Positions 4,328-61,916 of a DNA stretch of 64,000 nt are shown in pieces. The DNA comes from Malacoraja senta (lineage: Eukaryota). The stretch covers positions 21,082,001 to 21,146,000 of the forward strand of contig CM075988.1 in NCBI GenBank assembly GCA_038087875.1, written 5' to 3'. A program made the translations under genes and the position numbers. How positions within the stretch are numbered: position 1 is the stretch's first letter; every line of letters starts with the position of its first letter. The notes under the pieces were generated by a model that saw only the letters and a list, made by a program, of their open reading frames with translations, did no database searches and was not told where the DNA came from.

Positions 4328-4662
4328 AAAAAGCTGGAGTAACTCAGCGGGTCAGACAGCATCTCCGGAGAAAAGGAATAGGTGACGTTTCGGGTCGAGA
4401 CCCTTCTTCAGACTGAGAGTCGGGGGGAAAGGGAAAGGAGAGATATGGACGGTGATGTAGGGAGATACAGGACAAATGAGTGAAAGATGTAGCAATAATA
4501 AAGGAAGCGGTCCTTTGTGGGCTAGGTGAAAAGGAGTTACAGACAATGAAACTGACCAGGACGACAGAGACAAGGACTAGCTTGGGGGAGGGATGGAGAG
4601 AGAAGGGATGCAAGGGTTACCTGCAGGTAGAGAAATCAATATTCATACCGCTGGGTTGTAAG
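4328..4662 (-). mobile_element. Penelope-like 3' fragment with intact hammerhead-like motif (4384-4411, minus)
   Basis: Minus strand reads LQPSGMNIDFSTCR*, then UTR, then CTGAAGAAGGGTCTCGACCCGAAACGTC and the shared tail. Confidence 0.75.
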
Positions 4663-5043
4663 ATGCATTCCTCACAAATGAAAAGTTTACAGGTCGAATG
4701 ACAGGAACTGCAGTAAACACGGATTTGGACGTTGCTTCAGTGAGATTTTTCTTGGCGAAGTACAACATTTCTTGTCAGCTGTCATTTGTCATGTCCAGGC
4801 ACTGCCACTTCTCACCCTCAAACACTGCTTTTAACATTGAAACTTCTGGACATTAACGGGCTCCTAAAATAGCATTTTGAATCTTTCTTGAAGCACATTT
4901 AGAAAGACTGGAGACTCCCTCCCGCAACTGTCCACTTGAAATCCTCCAGTGCTCCCGCTGAGTGTACAATAGATGACGAACATCAATGTCCAAAATTCTC
5001 GGGAGATAAATTCATCTTTAGAGACACAGCATGGAAACAGGCC

Positions 5044-5203
5044 CGTGTAGGGAACAACTGCCGATGCTGGCTTAAATCGAAGGTAGACACAAAATGCTTC
5101 AGGGACTGAAGAAGGGTCTCGACCCGAAACATCACCCATTCCTTCTCTCCAGAGATGCTGCCTGTCCCGCTGAGTTACTCCAGCATTTTTGTATCTACCT
5201 TCG
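5044..5203. mobile_element. Penelope-derived partial fold-back inserted in a HE1 SINE tail, 13-bp TSD
   Basis: TSD ATGGAAACAGGCC at 5031-5043 and 5204-5216. Variant motif at 5106-5133. Confidence 0.75.
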
Positions 5204-5567
5204 ATGGAAACAGGCCTTACGGCCCATCGAGTCCATGCTGACCCGTCAATCACCCATTCACATTAGTTCTGTTATCCCACTTTCTCATCCACTCTCTGCA
5301 CATGAGGGCCGATTTAATGAGGCCAATTAACCTGCAAACCCCACACATCTTTGGGATGTGGGAGGAAATTGGAGCACTCTGAAGAAACCATGTGGTCGCG
5401 GTGGGGGTGGGGGGGGGGGGTAGGTACAAGAACCAGCCTACCCCCCACCCCCACAGGATTGAACCTGGGTCTCTGGCGCTGTGAGGCAGCAACTCCACCG
5501 CCACGCCAACTTGATGCTCCAATGCGCACGCATATTCTCCACGTTGGAGCCCCAACGTGGTCTAGAC

Positions 5568-6275
5568 CAGGGATGGGGAACCTTTTCATGTTGGAATGCC
5601 GCATTAAGTTAGCTGTAATCTAATAAGGCCGCATCCAAGAAACTTCAATTAGATATACTTCAAAATGTACATTATTTTGTTAAAATAGCCCTCATGACTT
5701 ACTAATGTTTTAATTGTGGCCGTCAGTCGGGGAGGATTATTTCGTTGAATCTTCTTTTACTCTTTGGTATTTTAAATACGTTCATTTTAAGATTAAAATA
5801 AAAAATAATAAAAGACGAACAAAAACATATTAATAAAAATAAAAGGATTTGTTCTACAAAATTTGGATTCATTCAAAGGCCGCACTTAATGGCCTGGAAG
5901 GCTGCACGCGGCCTTAATAGCCCTGTCCCACGGTGCGAGTTCATTCCAAGAGCTCTCCCGAGTTTAAAAAATAATCAAACTCGGGGTAAGCATGGAGAAT
6001 GAACGTAGCGGGTACGTTGGAGCTCGGGGACGTCTCTTAGCGGCTCGTAACGCTAACGGCAGGTACTCGGGAAGACTCGCTAACGGCAGGTAAGCACGGG
6101 AAGACTCGTGAAGATTTTTTAACATGTTGAAAAATGTCCACGAGAGCCCCGAGTACCGACGAGTGGCCATTACCGTAAATCTCCGAATCTTCGAATCAGG
6201 GCAAACTCGGGAGAGCTCTTGGAATGAACTGGTACCGTGGGACAGGGCTTTAAGGCTGCAGGTTCCCCACCCCTG
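5568..6275. mobile_element. hAT (Charlie-like) MITE
   Basis: TIRs CAGGGATGGGGAACC / GGTTCCCCACCCCTG. 8-bp TSD GTCTAGAC (5560-5567) / GTCAAGAC (6276-6283) fits the NTCTAGAN target. Confidence 0.85.
5918..6250. mobile_element. PIF/Harbinger-type MITE nested in the hAT MITE
   Basis: 47-bp TIRs AGCCCTGTCCCACGGT.C.AGTTCATTCCAAGAGCTCTCCCGAGTTT with 2 mismatches. TAA TSD at 5915-17 and 6251-53; removing it restores GCCTTAAGGC. Confidence 0.8.
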
Positions 6276-6824
6276 GTCAAGACCTTAGAGCTCCCACCTG
6301 GTCTCACACCAGCACTATGCAGTATAAACAGTAGATGGACGCGAGAGAGAAAGCATTTCCGTGTCCGACTTACGCAACATCAGACTTACACAAAGGTCTC
6401 GCGTAAGTCGTGGGGGGGGGGGGGGGGGCGTCTCGTATTCTGTGTGTTGTCAACCGCTGTTGTCCAGGAGCAACGGGCTGTGAATCCATCAGACTGGGAC
6501 GCAGTGACACCAGTGGCAACTCGGGTGCTGAGTGCAAGGGTAAAGGAGTCAAGTTTCACGTGACAGGGGCCAAACGAGGGCAGCACTTGTGGATGCGAGG
6601 TGAAGATAGCATCTTTTCCCAACCCCTGAAACCTCCTGTAGATCAATAATCAGCCGACAATCACCGTCAAATGAAATTGTACTCCAGGAAATAGTTCACA
6701 GGTTGAGAAGAACCTGGGCAAGAACGTTGGCAAAGAACAAAAACTAAAAAGCAAATAATCCTCGTGTTTATAACCTCAGCTGTACGCGCAGGTGATGAAT
6801 TATCCAATTAATCTATTACTGCAG

Positions 6825-7108: not shown

Positions 7109-7201
7109 CCCCCCCCCCCTCCCAATAATCCAGCAACCGTGGGACTTTGATGGTGGCAGGGCGGTTGATATTCTGTGCTGTTATTCGTTGAGCATAGAAC
7201 A

Positions 7202-7861: not shown

Positions 7862-8108
7862 ACACAATAGGGTGGACAAAAATGCTGGAGAAACTCAGCG
7901 GGTGAGGCAGCATCTATGGAGCAAAGGAATAGGTGGCGTTTCGGGTCGAGACCCTTCTTCAGTCCCACAACCCACAATTCTGAAGAAGGGTCTCGACCCG
8001 AAACGTCACCTATTCCTTCGCTCCATAGATGCTGCCTCACCCGCTGAGCTTCTCCAGCACTTTTCTCCACCTTCGATTGTTCCAACATCTGCAGTACCTT
8101 CTTAAACA
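7862..8108. mobile_element. Fold-back (inverted pLTR) Penelope-derived element; intact hammerhead-like motif on + at 7980-8007
   Basis: Arms of ~90 bp are reverse complements (…GGTGAGGCAGCATCTATGGAGC… / …GCTCCATAGATGCTGCCTCACC…) around a short spacer. Confidence 0.8.
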
Positions 8109-10408
8109 TTCCTGTTTTCATGCAACTTAATCTGGTTTATTGTATTTTGCCTTGAAGCATCGCGTAAAAATGAAAATCAATGTTGAAATATGCTGCTGAA
8201 GTAAATGAGTAATCCCTCAATCTGTACGTCAATTCCGATTATCGATTTTTGCAAAGAAAAACAACCTTAAATTTGCCACAAGTAAGATGACTTTAGACTT
8301 CAGCTCTCAGCCAATTAATCGACAAACCTGCGCGTCTTTGCAGTGCGGGAGGAAACCGGAGCATCTGGAGAAAACCCACGTGGTTACAGGGAGAACGTGC
8401 AAACTCCGTACAGTCAGCATCCGTAGTCGGGATCGAACCCAGAGTCTCTGGCTCTATGAGGCAGCAACTCTACCACTGCGCCACCGTGCAGCCCAAAAAA
8501 CATCTCCATTCAACTAATGTAGTTCACTTTCAGGTTGGTCAGAGGTCATAAGTGATAGGAGTAGAATTAGGCCATTCGGCCCATTGAGTCTACTCCGCCA
8601 TTCAATCGTGGCTGATCTAACCCCATTCTCCTGCCTTCTCCCCATAACCTCTGACACCCGTACTAATCAAGAAATCTTCAGTCTGAAGAAGGGTTTTGGA
8701 CCGAAACGTTGCCTATTTCCTTCGCTCCATAGATGCTGCTGCACCCGCTGAGTTTCTCCAGCACTTTTGTCTACCTTCGATTTTCCAGCATCTGCAGTTC
8801 CTTCTTAAACACAAGAATCTATCCATCTCTGCCTTAAAAATATCCACTGACTTGGCCTCCACATCCTTCTGTGGCAAAGAATTCCACGGATTCACCACCC
8901 TTTGACTAAAGACAATCCTCCTCGTCCCCTTCCTAAAAGACGATCATGGTGCAGAGATGGGCATGTACACTACTCTCTTGCACGGGTCAATTCTGCGGTC
9001 AAACCCACGCCCCTCTGCAAAGTTTGCTCTCAGCCGGCATCTTGGTGACTTTATTTTTTCAATCAACAACTCATTAGATTCAAATGTTGCTCATGCTTTG
9101 AAAATATTTTACTCATGACATGTTTGGAAAAAACAAATTAATGTGACTTACAGATCATAAACTACTTAATGCTCATGCTTAAAAATAAAATGTGATTGTT
9201 ATTCATTGAGTTATAGCTCTGTGCTTGGCTGGAGCGGATTATGAAGTAAGTAGATTGTGGGGACCTATGACAGAAGACTACGAAAATATGGGAATTATTC
9301 AGGCTTGTGCAGTTGAGTGATATCAGTGTTTTGCATATGATTACCTGCCGGGGAATAGAATAATCTGCAGCAACTGCAGCTTTGCGGTCCTTTAGGATAC
9401 ATGCGTGTGAGTTTTGGAATCTGTTATTAGCTTATACTGCAGTTTGTGCGTGGGAAGGAACTGCAGATGCAGGTTTGCACCGAAGATGGACACAAAATAC
9501 TGGAGTAACTCAGTGGGACAGGCAGCCTCACTGGAGAGAAGGAATAGGCGATGTTCTGAAGAAGGGTCTCGACCTCAGTCAGTTCTAAAATTTCGATAGT
9601 TTCCATAGTTTCGATATTCTGTCTTGTCTTTCAAACTAATGTACAGTTTTAGTTCATTAATTCAAGGCAAGCGTTAGAGGTGACTTCTGTGCTTTTCGCG
9701 AAACACAAAGTGCTGGAGTTACTCGGCGGGTCAGGCAGCATCTGTGGAGGGAATGGAGGCGTTTCTGGTCAGGGCAACTTCTTCAGGCTGATCCAGGTAC
9801 ACATTTCAAGCCAGCATCGCTCGGTCAGGCTACCTGGCCCTTAACATGGAAGAACCGGGCAGGTTGGACCAGGACCAAAGATAGATGTTTCGGGTCGAGA
9901 CCCTCAGTCAGACTGAGATTCAGCGAGGGGGAAACTAGAGGCGTGGGAAGGTACAGAACAAAGCAGAGCCCGTATCGGATCACTCGGGGAAACGGTGGAG
10001 CCCACAATGGTCCATTGTTGGCTGGGGACGAGGTGATTACAAACAGTGAAGTTAGCAGGAGGATTAGGATGGGGGAGGAATGGAGAGAGAGAGATGGAGA
10101 GAGAGAGAGAGAGAGTCACCCTTGCATTCCCCTCTCTCTCAGTCCCTCCCCCACCCAAGAGGTACAGAAGTGTGAAAATGCACAACTCCAGTCAGGGACA
10201 GTTCTTCCCAGCAACTGAATCATCATTCCACCAACTAGAGAGCGGTCCTGACCTCCCATCTACCTCAGGGGTCACCCTCGGACTATCTTTAATCGGACAT
10301 TACGGGACTTTAACCTTGCGCTGAACGTTGTAACCTTTATCATTATTCTGTTGACATTTCGATTGTATCATATATATTCTTTCCGATGACGATAGCACGC
10401 GACAAAAA

Positions 10409-13240: not shown

Positions 13241-15379
13241 GGTCAGACTGATTGTACGTCTCGTTGTCATCTTCTCCTCAGCTAACAATGAACCGTTCTA
13301 CATGTCCTTGATCAGCGTCCTCTTTGATCTGCGTTTTCACACCTTACCCTTCCATTTCTCTCCGTCTCCCTCTCCCCCTGACTCTCATTCTGAAGAAAGG
13401 TCTCGACCCGAATCGTCACCCATTCCTTCTCTCCAGAGATGCTGCCTGTCCCGCTGAGTTACTCCAGCGTTTTGTGTCTATCTTCGGTAGGAACCAGCAT
13501 CTGAGCGGATACAGGTGTCGGGGTTTACGGGGAGAAGGCGGGAGAATGGGGTTAGGAGGGAGAGACAGATCAGCCAGGATTGAATGGCGGAGTAGACTTG
13601 ATGGGCCGAATGGCCTAATTGTACTCCTATTCCTCATGATCTGCAGTTCCTTCCTGCACATGACCTCTGGAGTGATCCATTGCAGTGAAGATTGTTAAGG
13701 GTTTGGACACGTTAGAGGCAGGAAACATGTTCCCGATGTTGGGGGAGTCCAGAACCAGGGGCCACGGTTTAAGAATAAGGAGTAAGCCATTTAGAACGGA
13801 GACGAGGTAACGCTTTTTCTCACAGAGAGTGGTGAGTCTGTGGAATTCTCTGCCTCAGAAGGCGGGGGAGGCAGGTTCTCTGGATGCTTTCAAGAGGGAG
13901 CTAGATAGGGCTCTTAAAAATAGCGGAGTCAGGGGATATGGGGAGAAGGCAGGAACGGGGTACTGATTGGGGATGATCAGCCATGATCACATTGAATCAC
14001 ACTGGCTCGAGGGGCTGAATGGCCTACTCCTGCACCTATTGTCTATTGTATTGAGATTTTGTTTGCCCCTTTGCAATCTCACACTCAGAAGGGACATTTC
14101 CATGCCGGCTGAGTTGCTTATGCAGAGAGCAATGTGACGTTGCCATTAGGAGCATTAGGCTCCTGCCAGGAATATGCTGCAATCAATCCCATTAAGCTGC
14201 AAGAAGCCACAAAGCAGAATCAATACATTTCCAAGCCTGGTTTAGTAATGAGCCATCAGTTTTTAGATAACTGCATTAAAACAATAATGCATTTGATTGC
14301 AGAAAGGGTGGCTTTGTAGAAATGCGATGGGCAGCATGGTCATAAAGATAGGCGCAGGTTTTTAATGAATTATTTATTTGCGCGTCCAGTGAAGTTGATG
14401 ATGTTTGCGTTTATGCTGTGTAATTTGCAAGGCTGTTTTCTCTAGAGATATTCTGTTCTTCCAGCTTCATGTTGGTGATTATAAAGGCTTGAATATGATT
14501 CATAGCAAGATGCAGCATGGAAACAGGCCTTTCGGCCCACCGAGTCCACACCGACCAGCGATCCCCGCACATTAACGCTATTCTGCACACAGCAGGGACA
14601 ATTTAGATTTACTGCACTCCAAGCCAATTGACCTACAGACCTGTGCGTCTTTGGAGTGTGGGAGGAAACCGAAGATCTGGGAGAAAAACCCGCGCAGGTC
14701 ACGGGGAGAACGTACAGACAAGCACCCTTGGTCAGGATCGAACCCGGGTCCCTGGCGCTGTAAGGCAGCAACTCTACCGCTGCGACACCGTGCCAGCCCT
14801 CGGGAGATGTTGTGACCGGTGCTGGAAATCCTGCTCGCAAGTGAAGGCGCCGAAGCTTTGAGGTTTGGAGCAGTGAAAAATGGATGGATGCCCTTTGCAA
14901 AGGCATCCCAGGCAGGCAGTGGTGGCCAAATTCCAGTCGAAAGCAAGGTGTGGGAATTTGTGCTGAGGGAAGGATTGAAGGAGAATGCTTTCTGCTCTTC
15001 CTGCTGTTTTTTTGGCTGCTTGTTGAACTGCAAAAAACACCCCGCCACTGCCCACAATTACTTGGTGTCGTGAGGAGAATAAATAGTGCAGCCATTCACA
15101 GTGGCATTTATTACACTAATTATCTGAGTTTTGCAAATATTCTCACAGCTTTCATCATCATATACCAGCTTGCTTGGAAGGGTTTGTAGACGGACTGTCT
15201 GATGCCAAGTTATAATCCAGTCATTGTTTATCATCACTAAAATGGCTGAGCAGTCAGAACTGTCGCTTTGACAATGGGTGGTGCTTTCTCTCTCCAGTAT
15301 GGAAGAACATCAGAGACAGAGCTGTTTGCAATTCAACCTTTGTGTGTTCTTCTCACTCAATACATCATAGTTGATACTT

Positions 15380-16080: not shown

Positions 16081-16280
16081 TGTAGGAAGGAACTGCAGGT
16101 GCTGGTTTAAACCAAAGATATGCTGGAGTAACTCAGCGGGACAGGCAGCATCTCTGGAGAGAAGGAATGGGTGACGTTTCGGGTCGAGACCCTTCTTCAG
16201 ACCCGAAACGTCACCCATTCTTTCTCTCCAGAGATGCTGCCTGTCCAGCCGAGTTACTCCAGTATTTTGTGTCTATCTTC
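16081..16280. mobile_element. Fold-back Penelope-derived element
   Basis: Inverted arms. Intact motif on minus at 16173-16200; the + copy is truncated to ACCCGAAACGTC. Confidence 0.75.
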
Positions 16281-18252
16281 ACAATAGAGGCCAATTCACC
16301 AGATGTTTTCAAGAGAGAGTTAGATTTAGCTCTTAGGGCTAAAGGAATCGACGGGAGAAAGCAGGAACGGGTACTGATTTTGGATGATCAGCCATGATCA
16401 TATTGAATGGCGGGCTGGCTCGAAGGGCCGAATGGCCCAATTCTATTTTTCTATGTTTCTCTGCTTGTAAATTAATCGTTTTTCTCCTTTCCCTCCTCAC
16501 TTTCTGGTTTCGATTATTAAATCCTCGTACAACGTAATTGGCTTGTGGAAGAAAAACATGATTAATTTGGTTTAATTTTTTCGGAGACATTTTCACTTTG
16601 CACGTAAGATTTTGTATGCAGTGTTGCTAGGTTGGTTTTGTTTGGGAATTGATGGGATTTGATAAGTACGGGTGTCAAGGGTTACGAGCCGAAGGCAGGA
16701 GAATGGGGCTGAGAGAGAAAGATAGATCAGCCATGAATGAATGACAGCGTGGTGGCGTAGCGGTAGAGTTACTGCCTTACAGCGCCAGAGATCTTGGTGC
16801 TTGATCTTGATCCCGACTACAGGTGCTGTCTGTGTGGAGTTTGTACGTTCTCCCTGTGACCTGCGTGAGTTTTCACCAAGATCTTCGGTTTCTTCCCACA
16901 CTCCAAAGATGTACAGGTTTGTAGGTTAATTAGCTTGGTGTAAGTGTAAATTGGCCAGAGTGTGTGTAGGGTGATGTTAGTGTGTGGGGATCGCTGGTTG
17001 GCACGGACTCGGAGGGCCGGTTTCCACGCTGTATCGCTAAACTAAACTAAACTAGACTGGATGGGCCGAATGGCCCAATTCTGCTCCGAGAACTTATGAA
17101 GTAAAAGCAGAGTGATGCAGAGGTTTGTCTTCTGATTCAACATGGATTATGATATTTTATATTACCCAGTGGATATTGGAGAACTAGTCTCTTGCCATGG
17201 CCAGTCACCACATCCACGCCATTATCTACTTTATCTGTCCACAGTTGCCTGCAAAGTAGACTTGACACAACAGCAGTGGAGAAAAGGCACAGATTGCTGG
17301 AGTAACTCCGCAAGTCAGGCACCATCTCTGGAGAAGATGGATAGGTGATGCTTCAGGTCGAGACCTTTCTTCAAGTCTGAAGAAGGGTCTCGACCTGAAG
17401 CGTCATTTATATCTGACTTGCTGAGTTACTCCAGCACTTTACAGGGTTTTTTTGCAAACCAACATCTGCAGTACCGTCTTTCTCCAATAACAGTGGAGGC
17501 GAGGTTGTAATGTTTAGCGGTGTGTGTTAAAGTCCATCTGTGCTTTACAAGCACGCACGTTCCATAATGTTGTCTTGTGGTGAGTGTGGGTGGTGTACAG
17601 GAGATATATTCAGTAGCGTGAGCTTCAGGACAACATTAATGAAGGATCTTGAACAACACAGCCAGGCTCTGAGTGAATATTTCAGCGCGGCTTCTGAAGG
17701 ATATGTAAGCATTGCATGCTACACTGAGCATTCTCCTTACTGTAACTCCTCGGCAATTCATCACTGTCCTGGAGCTGATGTTTTCAGTTTACCTGGAGCT
17801 GCTGCCTAATTTAATTACTGTGTTTGCAAAAACCTAATGAAATCAGTAAGAGGTACGGCTGCTACAAAAAAAGCCCCTGGAAGCAAACGAGGATTTGAGC
17901 GAGGATTGGGTAATGAAGCTGATGGTTTTAGCTCCGTGATTTCATTACACTGAGCTACTGCAGATGAGTGGGAGGGCCAGTGGGCAGTTCCCAGTCGTAA
18001 TCTCAGGAAACGCATCAGAGTACCTGCAATGGGCTGCGATTGAAAGTTCACTTGACATTGGCCGTCTCTCGTGCCTGAAGTCAGTTTAGTTTATTGTCAC
18101 ATGTACCGAGGTGCAGGGAAAAGCTTTTGTCGTGAGCTAACCAGTCACCAGCTAGGTAATACATGATTACAATCGAGCCATCCGCAGTGTACAGATACAT
18201 GGTAAAGGAATGTGGTTTAGTGCAAGGCAAAGCCAGTAAAGTCCGATCAAAG

Positions 18253-18494
18253 GTACACATAAATGCTGGAGAAACTCAGCGGGTGCAGCAGCAGCATCTA
18301 TGGAGCGAAGGAAATAGGCGAAGTTTCGGGCCGAAACCCTTCTTCAGACTTCCCCCCTATCAGTCTGAAGAAGGGTTTCGGCCCGAAACGTTGCCTATCT
18401 CCTTCGCTCCATAGATGCTGCTGCACCCGCTGAGTTTCTCCAGCATTTTTGTCTACCTTCGATTTTCCAGCATCTGCAGTTCCTTCTTGAACAC
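18253..18494. mobile_element. Fold-back Penelope-derived element with 15-bp TSD, inside a Rex1/Babar-like tail
   Basis: TSD AAAGTCCGATCAAAG at 18238-18252 and 18495-18509. Inverted arms. Motif CTGAAGAAGGGTTTCGGCCCGAAACGTT at 18365-18392. Confidence 0.85.
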
Positions 18495-20703: not shown

Positions 20704-21090
20704 TCTCATTCCCAATCGGACCTTTCTAGTCCTGGGCCTCCTCCATTGTCAGAGTGAGGCCCAGCGCAAATTGGAGGAACAGCACCTCATATTTCGCTTG
20801 GGTAGTCTACACCCCAGCGGGATGAACATTGACTTCTCTAACTTCAGATAGACCTTGCTTTCCCTCTCTCTCCATCCCCTCCCCCTTCCCCGTTCTCCCA
20901 CCAGTCTTACTGTCTCTGACTACATTCTATCTCTGTCCCGCCCACTCCCCTGACATCAGTCTGAAGTAGGGCCTCGACCCGAAACGTCGCCCATTCCTTC
21001 TCTCCAGAGATGCTGCCTGACCCGCTGAGTTACTCCAGCATTTTGTGTCTACTTTCGATTTAAACCAGCATCTGCAGTTCTTTCCTGCAC
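20704..21090 (+). mobile_element. Penelope-like retrotransposon 3' fragment: C-terminus of GIY-YIG endonuclease ORF + 3' UTR/pLTR with degenerate hammerhead motif
   Basis: 20729-20851 reads VLGLLHCQSEAQRKLEEQHLIFRLGSLHPSGMNIDFSNFR*, an E...IxxLxxLxPxGxN motif typical of the PLE GIY-YIG end. A pyrimidine-rich UTR follows, then CTGAAGTAGGGCCTCGACCCGAAACGTC at 20961-20988 and the common tail ending ...CAGCATCTGCAGTTCTTTCC. Confidence 0.8.
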
Positions 21091-47907: not shown

Positions 47908-50654
47908 GTGAGTAAAAAAAACACTCTCGCCCAGAGAGACGCTTCAGGCCATGTCTTGGCCGAAACTCGCTCGCCCCTCTCGGTTACTGATTGTTCACTT
48001 GTAGAAAGAAGTCTGGTGTATAGTCCCAGATGTTAGTGGTCACTGCGACCAGCCATATCTCCGTCCTGCAGGTGAAACTTGCAGCGTTACATAATATTGA
48101 TGTGTACATCTTGGATGTTTGCAAGAGAGAGTTAGATTTAGCTCTTGGGGACTAATGGAATCAGGGGATGTGGAGAGAAAGCGGGAACGGGGGTACTGAT
48201 TTTGGATGATCAGCCATGATCATATTGAACTCGAAGGGCCGAATGGCCTCTCCTGCGCCTAGTTTCTATGTACAGCACAGGAACAGGCCCTTCGGCCCAC
48301 AGTGTCCATGCTGTACACGATGTAAATCTAGGCTAATCTCCTCTGCTCATGTTGGGGTTCACAGAATGTAACCCTCATGTAAGTTGGGGAGTGCCTGAAC
48401 AGTGATTGTAATACAATAAGTTAATAATCAGTGATACTAGGTCACCATAACAGTGCAAACTAAGTGCCCAGTGCAATCACAATCACAGAAGGTCACAGTT
48501 GCTGGGGTTAGTGTTGCGCTCGAGAACCTGATGGTTCTTAAGTTCTACGACCAGAATTAGACCATTTGGCCCATCAAGTCTACACTGCCATTCAATCATG
48601 GCTGGTCTATATTTTCCTCTCAACTCCATTCTCCTGAAGAAAGGTTTTGGCCCGAAACGTTGCCTATTTCCTTCGCTCCATAGATGCTGCTGCACCCGCT
48701 GAGTTTCTCCAGCATTTTTGTCTACCTTTGGCCTCTGCAGACATCTGCAGACCCACAAGTAGACGACCCTATGGAGAGGAGAGGACGGTCATACACGTTG
48801 CGAGTGCCCGTCGATGATTCTATGTTTCACACAGTAAGCTTTGGTCCTTGTCACTGGTCCAACAGTGGCCCATCCTTGTGTGTGGCAAAGTCACACAGTG
48901 GAGTGTAGAATCTGCCCAGGTTTAGCCAGAAGAAATTTGATAGCTGTAGTTTAGTCAAGGCATTGGAATGTTTAATATGGGAAATGTTGGCAGCTGTGTT
49001 GGTTCATTAGTTTTAGCTTGAGAGCCAACAATCAAATCACAGTACAAGTCTAGGAGCAGTGACATACTGTATTAACCAGGCCAGCTAACTACATTGTCAA
49101 ACCGTTGTGACTTATTCCAGAGCTGCAAGAGAACACAGAGAAATTCTTCAGAACCCGAGTCTAATTAAGTCAATTTCTCCAGGTCCGTTGCTAGCTGAAA
49201 GTATTCACGTCTGTGAACCTTGCTCTGGGTACTCGTTGCCAGAAGTAGCCATGAGTGGGGTCGTTTTGATTAATATGGAAGGCTACATTTCCTAAAATCT
49301 TCCACATCTTTCTTCATGCCAGCATGGAAATCAAAGCAGAGAGAGAGAGAGAGAGATTTAACAAGACTGCTCTCATATTTTTTTGCTTATCCTATTTTCA
49401 AGGGCAGCCATGCGAGTTATGGGTGATGAGAGGATCAGAGTTAATCTTGGTCATTGAGGTTTTCATCGAGGGCTTGTACTCAACAGAGATTTTTTTTTAA
49501 GTTCTCTTGTTTTCAGATATGTTTACACCAATTAGCTCAAGCTAGTTTCTCCAGAGACCCGTACATGGAAAGCAATCAATATGCAGAGAGGTCTGTGTCT
49601 CACCTCTCCTTGTTGCTCAGGCCCTCTTTACTCTAGAGGTACGCTATGGGACTAGGCCCACCGAGACCACGCCGACCACGGATAAGCCCATATACTAGCA
49701 CTAATTCCAAACACTAGGGACAAGTTTCAAATAGTAGAAGCTGATTAACCTACAAACCTGAACATCTTTGGAGGCTGGAAGGAAACCCGAGCACCCGGAG
49801 AAAACCCACGCGGTCGCAGGGAGAACGTGCAAACTCCCTACAGACAGCACCCGTGGTCGGGATGGAACCCCCGGGTCCCTGGCGCTGTAAGTCAGCAACT
49901 TTACCACCGTGCCGCCATGTTAGGCAACATCCTCGTCAAATCCTAGACAGTAGCACATGTGACCAGCGGTTAGCACCTACTTGCTCGGGGTGACGGCAGC
50001 CATTTCCTGATTCCCCTTGGAGGGAAATCGGAGGGAAGTGCCGAAGGTAAAGATGTTTAAAGCTGGTGTGAACATGAAAGGCAATCGAACCTCTCCCACG
50101 AGACACCATTACTGGATGGCGGTGACTAATAGCCAGAGAAGGATCTCGGGAATTAGCTGCCAGTGTCTTCCCGCTTAGTGACATGTTGTTGGGATTCACC
50201 CACCTGTTACTGACACAACCTTGACGCTCCAATTTACCTTTGGGTTGAAAAAGCACCTGGAACGCAAAAGTGGTGCAGATACACGAGGTTAATTCCCGGG
50301 ATGGCGGGACTGTCATATGCTGAGAGAATTTAGTTCGGAGATACAGCGCGGAAACAGGCCCTTCGGCCCACCGAGTCCGCGCCGACCAGCGATCCCCGCA
50401 CACTAACACTATCCTACACACACTAGGGGACAATTTACAATCTTTACCAGAAGCCAATTAACCTACAAACCCGCACGTCTTTGGAATGTGGGAGGAAACC
50501 GGAGCACCCGGAGAAAACCCACGCAGGTCACGGGGAGTGGACGTGCAAACTCCGCACAGACAGCACCCGTGGTCCTGGAGTAGAGAGAACTGGAATGTCG
50601 TTCGTCTAATCCTGAATTCCGCACTGGATATTCGCTGGTACGGCAATATCGATC

Positions 50655-52177: not shown

Positions 52178-55100
52178 CAAAGCCCATTGTCTCACATCAA
52201 CTCTACCCCTTTGCCACTGGTCGCAGGGCCCTTTAGATTCTGCCTGGTTGAAGCCCTTTGCCCCGTTACGGATATCTTAATTCGCTTCTAGATTCTGGTA
52301 AAGGAGGGTTCTCTGTGTGGTTTCTTTGCAGCTCTTGCAAAGCGGCCGGGTTTGATTTTTCTTCTTTGGCCGAATGACTCACGGGGATATTTTACTGACG
52401 TCATTTACGAAGTAATTAAAGGAAGGAGTCGCCCCCATTGATTCATCCCCACAGTCGGCTGTGACACACACACACTCTTCCCCGGACACAATGCCGCAGA
52501 GAGCCACTTGATTTAGGAATTCTTGACAGCTTTAATTTCCTGTGATGCGCAGGCCAGCATCAAAGTGCTCTTTAAGCAGCAGATAATTAAATGGGCGTCT
52601 GAGTGCGGTGTACCCAGCAATCAACCGACACGGAAGAAACTTGGGAAGTTTGCGGGTCATTCTAAACATTTTCCACCCGCATCCTGGGCGACCACTATCT
52701 ATATGGACACAAAGTGCTGGAGTAACTCAGCGGGACAGGCAGCATCTCTGGAGAGAAGGAATGGCTGACCTTTCCGGTCGAGACCTTTCCTCAGACTGAG
52801 AGTCAGGGAAGAGGGAGTCTAGCGATATGGAGGGGTAAGGTGTTAAAAAGAAAGATCAAAGTAGATGATACTCCAGCATTTTGTGTCTATCTTTGGTGTG
52901 AACCAGCATTTGCAGTTCCTTCTTACACAACTGCCGTCTACCTCATTGGAGACCCTTGGACTATCTTTGATCGAACTTGACTGGCTTTATCTTGCACTAA
53001 ATGTTATTCAGGATATTCTCTCAAGCAGTTTAGTTTAGTTCATTATCACATGTACCGAGGTACAGTGAAAAGCTTTCATGTATCTGTACACTGTGGATGG
53101 CTCGATTGTAATCATGTGTTGTCTTCCCGCTGACTGGTTGGCACGCAACAAAAGCTTTTCACTGGACCTCGGTACACATGACAATAAACTCAACTCAAAC
53201 TCATTTTGTAATCGGCTTCCAAATGTCAAGATATTTTTATTGTGGTATGTACCGTTAACTGAATAATGTGTATACCGAGGTACAGTGAAAAGCTTTTGTT
53301 GCGTGCCAACCAGTCAGCGGAAAGACAACACATGATTACCATCGAGCCATTTACAGTATCGATACAAGATATGGGGAAGGTAGACAAAAATGCTGGAGAA
53401 ACTCAGCGGGTGAGGCAGCATCTATGGAGCGAAGGAATAGGTGACGTTTCGGGTCGAGACCCTTCTTCAGACAAGATATGGGAATAACATTCAGTGCAAG
53501 ATAAAGCCAGTAAAGCCCGACAAAAGATAGTCCGAGGGTCTCCATTGAGGTAGATAGTAGTTCATTGACTCATTGTGTAGGAAGGAACTGCAGATGCTGG
53601 TTTAAACCAAAGATAGACACAAAATGCTGGAGTAACTCAAGGGTCTCGACCTGAAACGTCACCCATTCCTTCATTGAATCATTGACTGTTTGGTCATGGA
53701 GGTGAGTGAGAGAGGGTGGACACAAAATGCTGGAGCAACTCAGCGGGTGAGGCAGCATCTCAGGAGAGAAGGAATGGGCGACGTTTCGGGTCGAGACCCT
53801 TCTTCAAGAGAGGTTGTGCTGGGGGTTACACCAGCATTGAACAGACATCTGTTTGCAGGGATGGACACAGTGTTGGAGTAACTCAGCAGGATGAGGCAGC
53901 ATCTTAGGAGAACATGAAGAGGTGACGTGATGGGTCGGGAGCCTTAAACCTAACATTCCAGCTTCTCAACTCCCAACGTCCCAACTTCATCATCTAAACA
54001 GGGTCGCAGTTTAAGGATAAGGGGAAGGCCATTTAGGACTGTGATGAGAAAACCCTTTTTCACCCTGAGAGTTGTGAATCTGTGGAATTCTATGCCACAG
54101 AAGGCAGTGCAGATCGATTCACTGGATGTATTCAAGATGGAGTTAGTTATAGCTCTTGGGGCTAACAGAATCAAGGGATATGGGGAGAAAGCAGGAACGG
54201 GGTACTAATTCTGGATGATTAGCCATGATCATATTGAATGGCGGTGCTGACTCGAAGGGCCGAATGGCCTACTCCTGCACCTGTCTATTGTCTATTGTCT
54301 AAAAGCCTTCTTCATCACCCCATCTACCAGCGACACAACTCCCAGGGAACCATGTACTTGTACTTCTAGATCCCTCTGCTCTTTCTATTCCATATTTATT
54401 CATTTATTTATTTCATATTTAATTAACGGTACACTCATGCTGAACATGAATGCTCTCTTTCAATAAAGAATGCTGCCTTGCAAACATTGTAGGGAACACT
54501 TCTTCACCTCAGTGCTTGTTCCAGTTATACTATTGTGGAAAACTAAATAAAATGGGCATGAAAAATATGAAAGGATTCACATTACAGTATCAAAACCACT
54601 GCCTTAAATCTCAAGAGGAGTATGCAGTGGTGTTTATTGACCCACTGAGTTACTTCAGCAGTTTGTGTCTTTTTTTTAAAAATTGCAATGTGGCATCTGC
54701 AGTTCTTAGTCATAGAATGATACAGCGTGGAAACAGGCCCTTCGGCCCAACTTGCCCACATCGGCCAACGTGTCCCAGCTTACACGTTAGATAGACCTCT
54801 TAAAGATAGAGGAGTCAAGGGAAATGGGGAGAAGGCTGGAACAGGGTACTGATTGTGGATGATCAGCCATGATCACATTGAATGATGGTGCTGGCTCGAA
54901 GGGCCAAATGGCCTACTCCTGCACCTATTGTCTATTGTCTATTGTCACTAGTCCCACCTGCCCATGTTTGGTCCATATCCCTCCAAACTTGTCCTATCCA
55001 TGTACCTGTATAACTGTTTCGTAAATGTTGGGATAGTCCCAGCCTCAACTACCTCCACTGGCAGCTTGTTCCATACACCCACCACCCTTTGTGTGAAAAA

Positions 55101-55795: not shown

Positions 55796-56719
55796 CAATA
55801 GCTTTTCACTGTACCTTAGTACACGTTACAATAAACTAAACTAAAACTAGAAACACCTTCCATTTGCAGAGAGTCCAGATTACTGGGGCATTCCACATTC
55901 ACCTTTCACCATAGAGTCATCGAGTCATAAAGTGTGGAAACAGGCCCATCTACAGAAGGTAAGACACCAAATGCTGGAGGAGCTCAGAGGGTCAGGCAGC
56001 ATCTCTGGAGGAAAAGGTGATGTTTCGGCTTGGAACCCTTCTTCAGACTCACTGCGGAAAAGATTCCAACCTGAAACATCACCCACCCATGTTCTCCAGG
56101 GATGCTGCCTCACCCGTTGCTTTATTCCTGCACTTTGTGTCTGTCCGCATGTGTAGTTCCTTCCTACATACTTTGTATGCCCCATATACACTAGTCTCAC
56201 CTATCTGTGTTTGGCCTGTATCCTTGCAAACCTATCCTATCCATGTACCTACCTTAAACGCTGCAATTGTCCCTGCCTCAACTATCTCCTCCGGCAGCTC
56301 GTTCCATACACCCACCACCCTTTGTGTAGAAAATGTTACCTCTCAGGTTCCTATTAAATCTTTCCTCCCCCCCCCCTCATCTTTAACCAGTGCCATCTGG
56401 TTTTCAATTCCCCTACCCTGGGCAAGAGGCTCTGTGCCTTTACCCGATCTATTCCTCTCACGGTTTTGTATTTAAAAATATTTGCCCCTCAGGTTCCTAT
56501 TAAATCTTTACCCTCCTCACCGCACCTTTTCCCTTCCACAAGGTTCCCTCTCTTGAATCATCTCACAATCAATATGGCAATTTGTATGTAGGTGCAATGA
56601 TACAAGTGTGGGAACTGCAGAAGGGCCATTGTTGGATGTGTTCAGCTCACTGTCACGCGCCATTTGCAATGTAGCGGTTTATGAGTGCGTAGCGATTGTA
56701 ATATGAGTTTGTTGGCGGT

Positions 56720-58135: not shown

Positions 58136-58146
58136 ATTGCTAGCAC

Positions 58147-58282
58147 CAGTCTGAAGAAGGGTCTTGACCCGAAACGTCACCCATTCCTCCTCTCCAGAGA
58201 TGCTGCCTGTCCCGCTGAGTTACTCCAGCTTTTTGTGTGTTATCTTCGGGTTAAACCAGCATCTGCAGTTCCTTCTTACACA
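58147..58282 (+). mobile_element. Solo sense-strand Penelope pLTR with intact hammerhead-like motif (58151-58178)
   Basis: CAGT-CTGAAGA-A-GGGT-CTTG-ACCC-GAAAC-GTC-ACC followed by the standard tail. Confidence 0.75.
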
Positions 58283-58620: not shown

Positions 58621-58642
58621 GTAAGAGAAATACAGAATTATT

Positions 58643-59132: not shown

Positions 59133-59279
59133 AGACCACGGGGGAGCTCCAACACGGAGACCACGTGGGCTTCAGTGAGCTTAGAGAGCAAGTGCGAGTT
59201 TGCATGACCTATTATGTGAGGCAGGGGATTGTGTGTATTCTTTGTTCTGTAACCCTGGTCCTGCTGATTGTGTTTGCAG

Positions 59280-59443
59280 AGAGGATATCATCATTGAAGC
59301 GGATGCCGACAAGTACTCTCTGACTGAGGATGGGTCTGAACTGATGATTCACAAAGTGGGGAAACAGGACGATGGGGAATATGTCTGCATGGCTCAGAAT
59401 AAGGCCGGAGTGTACGAGCTGGAAATGACTCTACGTGTTTTCG
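59280..59443 (+). CDS. NCAM1: NCAM1-like coding exon (exon 7 equivalent; second half of Ig3), 164 nt, phase 2-1
   Basis: tttgcag| acceptor and G|gtaaga donor. Encodes EDIIIEADADKYSLTEDGSELMIHKVGKQDDGEYVCMAQNKAGVYELEMTLRVF. Confidence 0.94.
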
Positions 59444-60813
59444 GTAAGACCTCTCACTGTGAAATGTGTATTGATTTACGAGTGAAGGCATGGTGTGCTG
59501 CCAACTCCTCCCCTCACTGCCAAAGGCAGGCCTGACTTCAGGGCGTGAGGTTGGGCAGGCTGGGATTTTATTCCTTGGAAAGAAGAAAGATGGTGAATCT
59601 GTGGAATTCATTGCCACAGTGGGCTGTGGAGGCCGAGTCAATGGATATTTTTAAGGCAGAGATAGATCGATTCTTGATTAGTACGGGTGTCAAGGGTTAT
59701 GGGGAGAAGGCAGGAGAATGGGGTTGAGAGGGAAAGATAGACCAGCCATGATTGAATGGCGGAGTAGACTAGATGCGGCAAATGGCCTAATTCTGCTCCT
59801 ATCACTTATGATCTTATGAATGTTGTCCTCCCCTTAACCTGCGTGGGTTTTCTCCAGGATCTCCGGTTTCCTCCCACACTCCAAAGACGTACATGTTTGT
59901 AGGTCAATTGCTTTTGTATAATTATAAATTGTCCCAAGTGTGTGTAGGAAAGTGTAAGGGTGCGGGGATCGCTGGTTAGCACGGACTCGGTGGGCCGAAG
60001 GGCCTGTTTCTGCGCTGTATCTCTAAACTAAATTGAAAGAAAAAAGGAAATAATTTGAATGATGAAACTCAATGTGTAGTGAAACCCCATGTGATGGAAC
60101 ACTCAGTAAAGAAGCAGGTATTTTATATTTTGTTTAGTTTAGTTTAGTGGAAACAGGCCCTTCGTCTCACCGAGTCCATGCTGACCAACGATCACCCCAT
60201 ACACTAGTTCTATCCTCCACTCCAGGGACAATTTACAGAAGCCAATTAACCTGCAAACCCACACAGCTTAGGAATGTGAGAGGAAACCGGAGCACCCGGA
60301 GAAAACCCACGAGGTCCCAGGGAGAACGTGCAAACTCCACACAATCCCACGCTGTCACAGGGAGAACGTGCAAACTCCACACGGACAGCACCCGTAGTCA
60401 GGATCGAAGTCAGGTCTCTGGTGCTGTGAGGCACCAACTCTACTGCTGTGCCACTGATTCCGTTATATATAACCGCATCATGGGATAAACTGAATGATTT
60501 AAATCTTCTGGCAACGAGCTTGACGGAGCCAAGGTGTAAATCACGGGGACCTGTGGGGAGTTCGGTGATGCTGATGCACAACTTCTCACCCATTCATTTT
60601 AATTAATTTACTTCCTCCTGATGGACATGGCGCCGTGTGGCTGTGAGTCAGCTTTAGTGATCGCTCCCTGAAGTCCTGTCATATGAAGGACTGCGTTACG
60701 TCTGAAAATTGATTCCGACATTCATTACCTCCCAGTATGTCAGCAGTCACTGACACCGCAGTTGGAGAGGGTGGGCTGTGAACTGAAACCTTCTTCGGCA
60801 GCAGTTGACTTTG

Positions 60814-61036
60814 TGTGCAGGAAGGAACTGGTTTACACCGAAGGTAGACACAGAATGCAGGAGTAACTCAGCGGGACGGGCAGCATCTCTGGAGAGAAGG
60901 AATGGGCGACGTTTCGGGTCGAGACCTTTGTTCAGACCCTTCAGAAAGAAGGGACTCGACCCGAAACGTCACCCATTCCTTCTATCCAGAGATGCTGCCC
61001 GTCCCGCTGAGTTACTCCAGAGTTTTGTGTCTATAT
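60814..61036. mobile_element. Fold-back Penelope-derived element (similar units at ~17285-17470, 25015-25200, 30605-31010, 32538-32760, 34210-34380, 45430-45730, 51126-51223)
   Basis: Inverted arms share the private variant GGGACGGGCAGC / GCTGCCCGTCCC. Confidence 0.72.
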
Positions 61037-61916
61037 TCATGGCCAGAACCTCTGAAGAAAGGTTCTGAAGAAGACCACTGGGTGGGGGAAGGGGGAATGA
61101 CTGGAAGCTGGAAAAAGAGCACAAAAGGGGGAAAATGGAAACATTTTCTTGCTCCCACCCTGTAAAATCAGTGTGAAGAAGGGTCTCTACCTGAAACGTC
61201 GCCCATTCCTTCTCTCCAGAGATGGTGTCTGAGTTACTCCATCATTTTGTGTCTATCTTCTGTTTAAACCCGCATCTGCTGAGTCCGGGGATATGGGGAG
61301 AAGGCAGGAATGGTGGTGCTGGCTCGAAGAGCCGGGTGGCCCACTCCTGCACCTATTGTCTATTGCAGTTCCTTCCTACACCTGTAGTTCCTTCCTCCGC
61401 ACTCTCAGAATTAAGATCTTCCTTAAACGCCGATGAGGTTTTAATTTCTATTACTAAAATATACATCAGGGAAGCTTTTAACATTGTGCAAACTGCTCTG
61501 CCCCCAGAATAATTGCAATGCCCATAATCACTTCGAATCTGCTGAAAATGATGAGAGTCTAATAGTTTCCCTTTGCAGCTGCACATGATTCAAATTCCCC
61601 CAATTGGATCCGTGTCAGCTATCAAATAGAGTGCTTCTATGTTGCATAGACGAATGCCACTGCAGCCAATTGCTTCACCAGTTTAAGGGCTCTTATGTAC
61701 CAGTTTCTGGAGTCAATGATGACATTGTACAGGGAAATTTAGGTTTGTGCAATTTTGGTTAAAGTCCTGCTTTTGTTGGAAGATTGCACTGCAAGTTATT
61801 CGTGAAGCACTTCAACATATAATTATACTCCAGTCGCATTGTTATCGAACCCTTGTTAATTTGTTCCTGCTGTCAAAATTAACCACCACTTCCTTTCTCT
61901 TTGCGTTTGAATTTAG

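What the first reader, a model, noticed from the sequence alone, without database searches (positions are those of the whole stretch)
4384..61200. Dozens of minimal hammerhead-ribozyme motifs carried by Penelope-like 3' ends inside the NCAM1 transcription unit
Seen: the motif CTGAAGA-A-GGGT-(C/T)TCG-(A/G)CCC-GAAAC-GT(C/T) recurs about 30 times, intact or degenerate. Examples on + are 7980, 18365, 33786 and 58151; on - are 4384, 16173, 21634, 43673 and 53443. At 20729-20988 and 4384-4662 it sits just downstream of a GIY-YIG C-terminal ORF remnant (…EEQHLIFRLGSLHPSGMN…). Established: this matches the hammerhead core (CUGANGA / stem II / GAAA / UH). Penelope-like element pLTRs are known to carry minimal type I hammerheads whose tiny palindromic stem III (here ACGU or AACGUU) is thought to work as a dimer. 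Stem II keeps pairing between subfamilies (GGGU-CUCG-ACCC vs GGGU-UUCG-GCCC). Inference: this is an abundant elasmobranch ribozyme-bearing retroelement family, possibly mobilised as short non-autonomous 'retrozyme-like' units. Caveats: stem I is only ~2 bp and there is an extra A after A9, so activity is not assured.
Basis: partly seen in the sequence, partly recalled or inferred. Interest (0 to 1): 0.8.

Follow-up and report, generated by a model that had tools for sequence, protein, structure and literature searches.

The report
Hammerhead motifs in Penelope-like retroelement tails
The repeated motif is real: it is the small "minimal hammerhead" RNA motif that Penelope-like jumping genes carry near their 3' ends, present here in dozens of mostly truncated copies of a family that fills this genome; this kind of element is already described, and the copies likely cut RNA weakly or not at all.

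Summary
The 25-nt motif occurs 29 times in the window at up to 3 mismatches (11 exact), against 0 expected. Genome-wide there are 51,960 exact copies.

It opens a conserved 95-135 nt unit: 67 fragments in the window (10.8% of its bases), and about 0.7 million genome-wide by extrapolation.

That unit is the 3' end of a Neptune-type Penelope-like element (PLE). The element has a ~1,090-codon ORF with RT, a CX4CX2C linker and a GIY-YIG domain. Longer copies show the pLTR-ORF-pLTR layout, with the motif 120 nt after the stop and 136 nt before the next ATG.

Two sub-claims are not supported:
- The stem II "covariation" is a one-sided U-A to U-G change.
- The copies are solo or head-to-head fold-backs with target-site duplications, not retrozyme-like tandems.

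Cleavage is unproven. There is no Rfam hit, the minimum-energy fold hides the catalytic box, one RNA run shows no pile of read ends, and few copy 5' ends lie at the cleavage site.

This is a known kind, and this scan has found it before in other genomes. Interest is low. One point is unexplained: copy 5' ends pile at the start of the box.

The parts
4387..4411 (-). min-HHR box, exact; 3' end of a PLE copy with a long 3'UTR
4620..4736 (-). GIY-YIG C-terminal ORF remnant (...LQPSGMNIDFSTCR stop) upstream of the 4387 box
5106..5130 (+). min-HHR box, exact; right arm of a head-to-head pair (5045-5107 - / 5090-5225 +)
7938..7962 (-). min-HHR box, exact; left arm of fold-back 7870-8109
7980..8004 (+). 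min-HHR box, exact; right arm of fold-back 7870-8109
8683..8707 (+). min-HHR box, 2 mismatches; TTCG-type unit 8665-8813 with tail
9887..9911 (-). decayed box, 3 mismatches
13390..13414 (+). box, 2 mismatches; unit with 38 nt of 3'UTR upstream
16176..16200 (-). box, exact; fold-back 16078-16281
17377..17401 (+). box, 2 mismatches; fold-back 17285-17480
18323..18347 (-). box, exact, TTCG/GCCC variant; left arm of fold-back 18244-18495
18365..18389 (+). box, exact, TTCG/GCCC variant; right arm of fold-back 18244-18495
20687..20848 (+). GIY-YIG C-terminal ORF remnant, 54 codons to the stop
20861..21091 (+). PLE 3'UTR (100 nt), box at 20961-20985 (2 mismatches), unit and tail
21637..21661 (-). box, exact; unit 21528-21675 with tail
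24268..24292 (-). box, 2 mismatches; solo unit 24161-24305
25072..25096 (+). box, 1 mismatch; fold-back 25011-25204
30712..30736 (-). box, 1 mismatch; solo unit 30603-30748 with tail
33741..33765 (-). box, 2 mismatches; left arm of fold-back 33641-33911
33786..33810 (+). box, exact (T at N7+1); right arm of fold-back 33641-33911
37719..37743 (-). box, 2 mismatches
41805..41829 (-). box, 2 mismatches; solo short unit
43570..43800 (-). PLE 3'UTR (100 nt), exact box at 43676-43700, unit and tail
44033..44057 (-). box, 1 mismatch; separate short unit 43963-44066
48634..48658 (+). box, 2 mismatches; TTCG-type unit, sense to the NCAM1-like gene, in an intron
53376..53472 (-). solo short unit with exact box (53446-53470), flanked by a 12-bp target-site duplication CCCATATCTTGT; the insert starts at the C of CTGAAGA
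53716..53806 (-). solo short unit, box 1 mismatch (53783-53807), flanked by CCTCTCT
56022..56046 (-). decayed box, 3 mismatches; fold-back 55951-56170
58151..58175 (+). box, 1 mismatch; solo unit 58132-58283 with tail, sense to the NCAM1-like gene, in an intron
60911..60935 (-). box, 2 mismatches; fold-back 60812-61042
61173..61197 (+). decayed box, 3 mismatches; unit 61162-61281

Best explanation
The motifs are the first 25-28 nt of a 95-135 nt unit that forms the 3' end of a Neptune-type Penelope-like retrotransposon family. The window holds 67 mostly 5'-truncated copies of that unit, solo or as head-to-head fold-backs, and they are likely inert passengers in and around an NCAM1-like gene. 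Shown: in longer copies elsewhere in the genome the motif lies in each pseudo-LTR, 120 nt after the stop of the RT/GIY-YIG ORF and, in the upstream repeat, 136 nt before the ORF's first ATG. Shown: the motif has all hammerhead core nucleotides, a 4-bp helix II starting with G-C, one unpaired A after A9, no helix III loop but a palindromic ACGU, and C or U at the cleavage position. Inferred: in transcripts of full-length elements it would cut after GUC/GUU, removing the duplicated upstream piece, and only as a weak ribozyme that needs a second copy (helix III formed between two molecules) or the element's own protein. Inferred from published PLE biochemistry: insertion is by target-primed reverse transcription from both cut DNA strands. 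That would explain the head-to-head pairs in which only one arm carries the 33-nt tail.
For: Repeat and abundance:
- 29 matches against 0 expected.
- 51,960 exact copies genome-wide, against 0 for the reversed control.
- 67 unit fragments in the window, and 222 in 600 kb of 60 arbitrarily placed 10-kb stretches.

Link to a PLE:
- The GIY-YIG tail fragment from the window has 72,822 first-look candidates in the genome.
- Copies with open frames of 973-1,093 codons carry RVT_1 (E 5e-6 to 2e-5) followed by GIY-YIG (E ~1e-3).
- 1,024 relatives at E<=0.001, the best 120 at 37-70% identity. Almost all of those carry PF00078, PF28514 and PF26215, and 26 of 120 also carry PF01541.
- The linker reads C-x4-C-x2-C before the GIY...YIG.

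Layout:
- 13 of the 29 loci compared with L048 share its 5' boundary 316 nt upstream of an upstream-repeat box. 18 of all 30 loci hold that box at the same place.
- The order is box, unit, tail, leader, then ATG at +163 from the box start.
- One copy has a 12-bp target-site duplication and the tail; its near-identical sister copy lacks the tail.

Insertion signature: 61 head-to-head, 7 tail-to-tail and 22 head-to-tail neighbour pairs among 289 fragments, often with one arm ending at +123..131 and the other at +88..96. Exact flanking repeats of 7-15 bp occur in 9 of 46 solo copies, against 0 of 46 controls.

Conservation: three lineages with unalignable 3'UTRs (32-52% identity) share the block from -6 onward at 80-93% identity (p 2e-8 to 3e-4). 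The three differences in the 28-nt motif between the two main subfamilies fall in loop II, on a wobble-preserving stem position and on H17.

Literature: PLE min-HHR traits and low in vitro activity (PMC4209133, main text parts 1-2). Partial tandems, inverted 5'-truncated copies and a one-sided 30-40 bp tail (PMC8557442, passages). Both-strand cleavage and extension, and a protein-assisted HHR (PMC11167929, passages).
Against: Against catalytic function, not against identity:
- No Rfam hammerhead family matches the window, at gathering score or at E<=10.
- Minimum-energy folds of the unit do not form the hammerhead. The CUGAAGAAGG box pairs with the downstream CCUUCUCUCCAG (-10.6 kcal/mol), against -3.4 for helix II alone and -3.1 to -5.5 for the intermolecular helix III.
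- Helix I is only 2 bp (U-A, G-C), or 2+2 bp around a 2x2 internal loop.
- In many retrocopies the 5' strand of helix I is shortened or absent: 57 of 107 boxes keep at most 2 nt of the ATCAGT leader, and 22 keep none.
- In one poly(A) RNA run read as raw reads, no place reached the tool's threshold for read starts or ends (a fifth of local depth). 94% of laid reads ran on into unrelated flanks, in both orientations.
- Only 5 of 289 fragments begin within 2 nt of the predicted cleavage site.
- The motif is no better conserved than the ~65 nt after it (p 0.09-1.0), so the constraint may be on the whole terminal module rather than on catalysis.

Pfam scores for RVT_1 and GIY-YIG are below the curated cut-offs. 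The domain call rests on architecture and on the relatives.
Confidence: 0.85

Rival explanations
1. The motif is conserved as part of a terminal RNA module that the element's reverse transcriptase needs (binding, template positioning or 5'-end definition). It would no longer act as a ribozyme in this family, and its hammerhead core would be a relic or a hitch-hiker.
For: Conservation runs evenly from -6 to about +96 and is not focused on the core. The predicted folds hide the box. There is no read-end pile. Almost no retrocopies start at the cleavage site. Copy 5' ends pile at the box edge: 124 of 185 fragments that reach the box stop within -6..+3. Craig et al. note that PLE clades without HHRs proliferate well and that HHRs may simply parasitise PLEs (PMC8557442, passage). 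Frangieh et al. found HHR mutants insert normally in vitro (PMC11167929, passage).
Against: All core positions, the G10.1-C11.1 pair and the palindrome are intact in both main subfamilies. The three substitutions between them avoid every position that would break a hammerhead. Related PLE hammerheads do cleave in vitro (PMC4209133, PMC11167929).
Confidence: 0.3
2. The 95-135 nt units are a non-autonomous family of their own, SINE- or retrozyme-like. They would be transcribed from their first nucleotides or released from tandem arrays, and mobilised in trans by the PLE, rather than being random 5' truncations of the full element.
For: 5' ends are far from uniform: 124 of 289 fragments start at -6..+3, and several target-site duplications abut the C of CTGAAGA. 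Tandem forms exist: seven 50-nt units at L018:2674-3000 and a few unit dimers. A 2026 preprint argues that animal retrozymes are non-autonomous PLE derivatives (10.64898/2026.07.22.740005, abstract and Results part 1 read).
Against: The ends are staggered over six positions rather than sharp. Tandems are a small minority. Units are not bounded by the cleavage site. RNA reads with the unit run on into unrelated flanks in both orientations, as expected for passive read-through. No polymerase III boxes or tRNA-like head were seen by eye.
Confidence: 0.2
3. The match to the hammerhead core is a chance resemblance inside an ordinary repeat, or the inverted pairs are a DNA-transposon MITE.
For: All copies descend from one family, so 29 hits are in effect one event. 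Many copies are hairpin-shaped, and Rfam gives only sub-threshold microRNA-like hits on them.
Against: The motif sits where PLE hammerheads are known to sit. It also shows four independent traits that were not part of the published search pattern (PMC4209133). The arms of the pairs are variably truncated at the centre and carry retroelement tails at the outside. Solo copies have variable-length target-site duplications.
Confidence: 0.02

Closest known systems
Minimal hammerheads (min-HHR) in the pLTRs of metazoan Penelope-like elements (Cervera & De la Pena 2014, PMC4209133)
   Same: CUGANGA and GAAA boxes. No helix III loop. Palindromic 15.2-16.2. An unpaired nucleotide between A9 and G10.1. 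A G10.1-C11.1 pair. Location in the PLE terminal repeat. Thousands of dispersed single copies, plus pairs on opposite strands.
   Different: Helix II is 4 bp (7-8 bp in the Schistosoma families). Helix I is 2 bp, or 2+2 bp, as in the D. virilis variant. The copy number is far higher than the ~4,000-9,000 quoted for coelacanth and Xenopus: 51,960 exact boxes. The sequence is very uniform rather than highly variable.
PAc, the Poseidon-type PLE of Anolis carolinensis (Frangieh et al. 2024, PMC11167929)
   Same: pLTR-ORF-pLTR tandem layout. A hammerhead in the repeat upstream of the ORF. Copies with and without a 3' tail. Published cleavage and extension of both target strands, which fits the head-to-head pairs seen here.
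   Different: In PAc the ORF starts inside the hammerhead; here the ATG is 136 nt after the cleavage site. This element has the CX4CX2C linker of the Neptune/Nematis clades. No biochemistry exists for it.
Neptune clade of EN+ PLEs in fishes (described in PMC8557442 and, by recall, Arkhipova 2006)
   Same: [quoted passage not shown] 5' truncation, partial tandems, inverted 5' copies and a one-sided tail.
   Different: Clade placement rests on the linker motif only. No RT tree was built here.
Non-LTR retrozymes of animals (Cervera & De la Pena 2020, PMC7229834, search listing only; Li et al. 2026 preprint)
   Same: Short non-coding units with a type-I hammerhead, derived from PLE terminal repeats. 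A few tandem arrays exist in this genome.
   Different: Retrozymes are defined by head-to-tail tandems and circular RNAs bounded by the cleavage site. Here most units are solo or head-to-head, and they are bounded by the start of the box.

Membership tests
Hammerhead ribozyme, type I (Rfam RF00163 and relatives) | Conserved core: C3 U4 G5 A6 N7 G8 A9 ... G12 A13 A14 ... A15.1/U16.1, H17 | tested here: met
   CTGAAGA ... GAAA-C-G-T-C/T is present in 11 exact and 18 near-exact copies in the window and in both subfamilies.
Hammerhead ribozyme, type I (Rfam RF00163 and relatives) | Three helices around the core in a single molecule | tested here: not met
   Helix II is present (4 bp). Helix III has no loop and cannot form within one molecule. 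Helix I is 2 bp. Minimum-energy folds do not give the hammerhead.
Hammerhead ribozyme, type I (Rfam RF00163 and relatives) | Match to a curated covariance model | tested here: not met
   No hammerhead family matched at gathering score or at E<=10.
Hammerhead ribozyme, type I (Rfam RF00163 and relatives) | Site-specific self-cleavage | not testable with these tools
   The only indirect looks were negative: no read-end pile in one RNA run, and 5 of 289 copy 5' ends at the site. Both are weak tests.
min-HHR of Penelope-like elements | Catalytic boxes with helix III reduced to a palindromic 15.2-16.2 (dimer model) | tested here: met
   GAA-ACGT-C/T. The self-duplex of this segment is -3.1 kcal/mol (CTCG type) or -5.5 kcal/mol (TTCG type, AACGUU).
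min-HHR of Penelope-like elements | Unpaired nucleotide between A9 and G10.1, and a G10.1-C11.1 pair | tested here: met
   CTGAAGA-A-GGGT....ACCC. The A is kept in 89 of 95 aligned copies.
min-HHR of Penelope-like elements | Location in the terminal repeat (pLTR) of a PLE | tested here: met
   Box 120 nt after the ORF stop. The same box lies in the upstream repeat of 18 of 30 loci.
min-HHR of Penelope-like elements | Families with compensatory changes in the helices | tested here: inconclusive
   Only U-A to U-G in helix II, with the one-step intermediate present. No two-sided change was seen.
Penelope-like element, EN+ canonical | Single ORF with RT followed by a C-terminal GIY-YIG endonuclease | tested here: met
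   RVT_1 then GIY-YIG in 2 of 3 long ORFs, at sub-threshold scores. Relatives carry PF00078 and PF01541. GIY...YIG is visible in the translation.
Penelope-like element, EN+ canonical | Partial tandem (pLTR), inverted 5'-truncated copies, one-sided 30-40 bp tail | tested here: met
Neptune/Nematis clades | CX2-5CxxC motif in the RT-EN linker | tested here: met
   C-NRKR-C-NT-C lies 43 residues before the YIGET motif of the GIY-YIG domain. No phylogeny was done.
Non-LTR retrozyme | Head-to-tail tandem repeats, each unit with a hammerhead | tested here: not met
   22 head-to-tail neighbour pairs against 61 head-to-head among 289 fragments, and several of the 22 are split hits of one copy. One true array was found outside the window (L018).
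Non-LTR retrozyme | Circular RNA bounded by the cleavage site | not testable with these tools
   Only one poly(A) raw-read run was on hand.

The most novel reading that the evidence does not exclude
The 95-135 nt units are a distinct RNA species, not random truncations. Its 5' end lies at the first nucleotides of the hammerhead box, from a start site or processing event at -6..0, and the PLE copies it from both target strands. This would have made it one of the most abundant short retroposons in this genome (about 0.7 million fragments, 3.7% of sampled DNA). In that case the hammerhead box serves as a 5'-end or reverse-transcriptase stop module rather than as a ribozyme.
Probability: 0.15. Interest if true: 0.5.

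Novelty: new member of a known kind. Interest (0 to 1): 0.2.

Why it matters
It matters little for discovering new kinds of systems. Minimal hammerheads in Penelope-like elements have been in print since 2014, and this scan has already reported the same thing in several other genomes, including shark-like ones.

It is useful for annotation. About a tenth of this window, and roughly 4% of the sampled genome, is this one unit. Its hairpin-shaped pairs give spurious microRNA-like hits.

The family could serve as a natural data set on how PLEs insert. The 5' ends pile at the edge of the hammerhead box, and few copies start at the cleavage site. This fits the published in vitro result that uncleaved RNA is the template, and it raises the question of what sets that 5' end.

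Tried and rejected
- **Rfam.** Neither the gathering threshold nor E<=10 gave a hammerhead hit. The only hits were sub-threshold microRNA-like matches on fold-backs and on a TG/CA-rich stretch.
- **Pfam on window ORFs.** All 95 window ORFs of 100 or more codons were scanned. None matched RT or GIY-YIG; only Ig domains appeared. The window holds no long PLE coding remnant.
- **ORF start in the unit.** I considered that the ORF might start at the ATG inside the unit and read through the tail. This was rejected: longer copies have 366 nt more 5' sequence with their own ATG.
- **Tandem pairs.** The same-strand box pairs 43676/44033 and 53446/53783 looked like possible tandem units. The second pair is rejected: each of its units has its own flanking repeat. 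The first pair is a short unit beside a separate copy that carries 3'UTR sequence.
- **RNA evidence.** No RNA holder was listed by the look-up of sequencing runs. The one raw RNA run laid gave no read-end pile, but the tool's threshold is a fifth of local depth, so low-level cleavage would be missed.
- **Genome-wide counts of pairs.** I used the 664-kb sample instead.
- **Promoter or splice site at the box.** I looked by eye for polymerase III A/B boxes, an initiator, or a 3' splice site (polypyrimidine tract plus CAG just upstream of the box). Nothing was convincing. The staggered ends argue against a single sharp start site.
- **Strand bias against sense copies in the gene.** Fragments are 32 on + and 35 on -; boxes are 12 on + and 17 on -. 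There is no bias.
- **Literature on the 5'-end pile.** Four searches turned up no paper describing the pile at the box edge. For most hits I saw only the listings.

Full report
**Observation.** The pattern CTGAAGANGGGTYTCGRCCCGAAAC, at up to 3 mismatches, occurs 29 times in the window (12 on +, 17 on -). Eleven matches are exact, and no shuffle produced any. The two GIY-YIG C-terminal remnants are present at 20687-20848 (+) and 4620-4736 (-), each followed by a motif. Ig-domain exons lie at 46922-47299, 47559-47912 and 59185-59532 on +. The first matches NCAM1 Ig1 best (1qz1_A, E 1.3e-32; NCAM2 6e-22). So at least the last quarter of the window lies inside an NCAM1-like gene.

**What the motif belongs to.** Lining up the copies shows that conservation runs downstream of the motif, not upstream. 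The motif opens a unit that ends either about 88-96 nt or about 123-131 nt after the box start.

- A profile of the unit finds 67 fragments in the window, covering 10.8% of its bases.
- The same profile finds 222 fragments in 600 kb taken as 60 arbitrarily placed 10-kb stretches (3.7% of bases). That extrapolates to about 0.72 million fragments in the 1.94-Gb genome.
- The exact 25-mer occurs 51,960 times genome-wide (26,290 forward, 25,670 reverse). The reversed control gives 0.
- The window holds about six times the genome-average density of exact boxes.

**Link to a Penelope-like element.**

- The 54-residue GIY-YIG tail from the window has 72,822 first-look candidates in the genome.
- A 294-residue open frame from one of them finds copies with open frames of up to 1,093 codons.
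- Three long frames were fetched. All three have RVT_1 (E 5e-6 to 2e-5), and two also have GIY-YIG near the C-terminus (E ~1e-3). All of these scores are below Pfam's cut-offs.
- The RT-to-EN part has 1,024 relatives at E<=0.001. The best 120 are 37-70% identical, come from many animal phyla, and almost all carry PF00078, PF28514 and PF26215; 26 of the 120 also carry PF01541. The best named relative is from the shark Chiloscyllium punctatum.
- The linker reads C-x4-C-x2-C, the mark of the Neptune/Nematis clades according to PMC8557442, and GIY...YIG is visible in the translation.
- The box lies 120 nt after the stop codon.

**Full-length layout.** Thirty loci were retrieved with the 5' part of the ORF region. 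Of the 29 compared with L048, 13 share its boundary 316 nt upstream of a box in the upstream repeat, and 18 of all 30 hold that box at the same place. Reading one of them gives this order:

1. the last ~200 nt of the GIY-YIG coding region;
2. the 3'UTR;
3. the box;
4. the rest of the unit;
5. the 33-nt tail;
6. a leader;
7. the ORF's first ATG, 136 nt after the predicted cleavage site.

This is the pLTR-ORF-pLTR partial tandem that defines PLEs. Other copies add further standard features: one has a 470-nt inverted copy of its own 3' end upstream, and one has a 12-bp target-site duplication and the tail while its 98.7%-identical sister lacks the tail.

**Insertion signature in the sample.** Among 289 fragments there are 61 head-to-head neighbour pairs, 7 tail-to-tail and 22 head-to-tail. 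In the head-to-head pairs one arm often ends at +123..131 and the other at +88..96. Nine of 46 solo copies have exact flanking repeats of 7-15 bp, against 0 of 46 in a shifted control. Two window copies show the same.

These features match published descriptions of PLE insertions: 5' truncation, an adjacent inverted 5'-truncated copy, and a one-sided 30-40 bp tail (PMC8557442, passages). They also fit the finding that a PLE protein cuts and extends both target strands (PMC11167929, passages).

**Is it a hammerhead?** By sequence it matches the PLE min-HHR. It has all core nucleotides, a 4-bp helix II opened by G-C, one unpaired A after A9, no helix III loop but a palindromic ACGU (AACGUU in the younger subfamily), and C or U at position 17. 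The unpaired nucleotide, the G10.1-C11.1 pair and the palindrome are three of the four features that Cervera and De la Pena list as emerging beyond their search pattern (PMC4209133, parts 1-2 read). The fourth, compensatory variation, is not shown here. The subfamilies differ by U-A versus U-G in helix II, and the one-step intermediate exists.

Between three lineages the 3'UTRs are unalignable (32-52% identity). From -6 onward, identity is 80-93% across the motif and 72-85% across the next ~65 nt. So the motif is strongly conserved relative to its upstream flank (p 2e-8 to 3e-4), but not relative to its downstream flank (p 0.09-1.0). The conserved block starts where a 6-nt helix I strand (AUCAGU, pairing 2+2 bp with ACCCAU or ACCUAU) would start.

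**Does it cut?** This is untested, and the indirect looks are negative or neutral.

- No Rfam hammerhead model matches.
- The minimum-energy fold pairs the catalytic box with a downstream CCUUCUCUCCAG (-10.6 kcal/mol). Helix II alone is worth -3.4, and the intermolecular helix III -3.1 to -5.5.
- In one poly(A) RNA run read as raw reads, the unit is covered 700-2,400 deep in both orientations. 94% of laid reads run on into unrelated flanks, and no position reaches the tool's threshold for molecule starts or ends. That threshold is a fifth of local depth, so weak cleavage would be missed.
- Only 5 of 289 fragments begin within 2 nt of the cleavage site. Cleaved RNA is therefore rarely the template, which agrees with the in vitro result for PAc (PMC11167929).

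The published record for such motifs is low activity, as dimers or with the element's protein.

**An unexplained detail.** Of the 185 fragments that reach the box, 124 stop within -6..+3 of its first base. At single-base resolution the ends are staggered. Of 107 boxes, 22 keep no nucleotide of the upstream ATCAGT, and 20, 15, 12, 8, 12 and 18 keep one to six or more. Several target-site duplications abut the C of CTGAAGA. I could not tell whether this reflects an RNA 5' end, a reverse-transcriptase stop, or end-joining. Four literature searches found no description of it (mostly listings only).

**Verdict.** The retrozyme-like idea and the stem II covariation are not. The feature is an ordinary, very abundant member of a described kind. 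The scan's earlier notes report the same motif-in-PLE-tail and fold-back insertions in other genomes.

Noticed in passing
L018:2674-3000 (G000:C4, outside the window): A head-to-tail array of seven 50-nt units, each made of the box plus the next 25 nt. The junction falls at ...CCAGAG(A/T)|CTGAAGA. This is the only clear retrozyme-like tandem I saw.
   Followed up: partly
window 7938/7980 and 18323/18365; G000:C1:557416/557458: Three head-to-head box pairs have the same 42-nt start-to-start spacing. In my sample the arm-end combination of about -3 and -12 also recurs. Some fold-backs may have been copied as whole units, or the junction may be resolved at a preferred place.
   Followed up: no
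L048:993-1135: In the younger (TTCG) subfamily, the unit with its tail folds so that the box region pairs with the last ~14 nt of the tail (-38.2 kcal/mol, z -3.6, 0 of 200 shuffles as good). The older CTCG unit shows no such signal (z -0.6).
   Followed up: partly
window, e.g. 1202-1291, 3609-3699, 10420-10586, 22692-22870, 46577-46744, 55492-55656: A second, unrelated repeat of 90-180 nt occurs about 30 times in the window. It turned up as the 5' flank of my first BLAST query. I did not identify it.
   Followed up: no
window 58640-59140: A TG/CA-rich simple-sequence stretch gives many sub-threshold microRNA-like Rfam hits on both strands. The PLE fold-backs at 7889-8052 and 60863-61016 do the same (MIR2118, 61 and 49 bits against a gathering score of 85). 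These are artefacts of hairpin shape.
   Followed up: partly
L021:5106-5250 (3'UTR between ORF stop and box): In three RNA or RNA-like runs from other coded organisms, depth falls to 0-20 across the pyrimidine-rich 3'UTR. The ORF end and the unit remain covered, and a DNA run shows no dip. This is probably species divergence of the UTR, but an intron ending at the CAG just before the box was not excluded.
   Followed up: no
G000:C1:3872248-3884316 and G000:C562:9265/13261: On C1, six exact boxes lie on one strand at spacings of about 1.96, 2.46, 1.97, 2.45 and 3.2 kb. On C562, two full-length 5' ends lie 3,996 nt apart on one strand. These are likely multi-unit tandem PLE arrays.
   Followed up: no
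window 39927-40961 and 51614-52291: Stretches with long open frames in several frames and on both strands, with no Pfam match. They are probably compositionally biased or repeat DNA.
   Followed up: no
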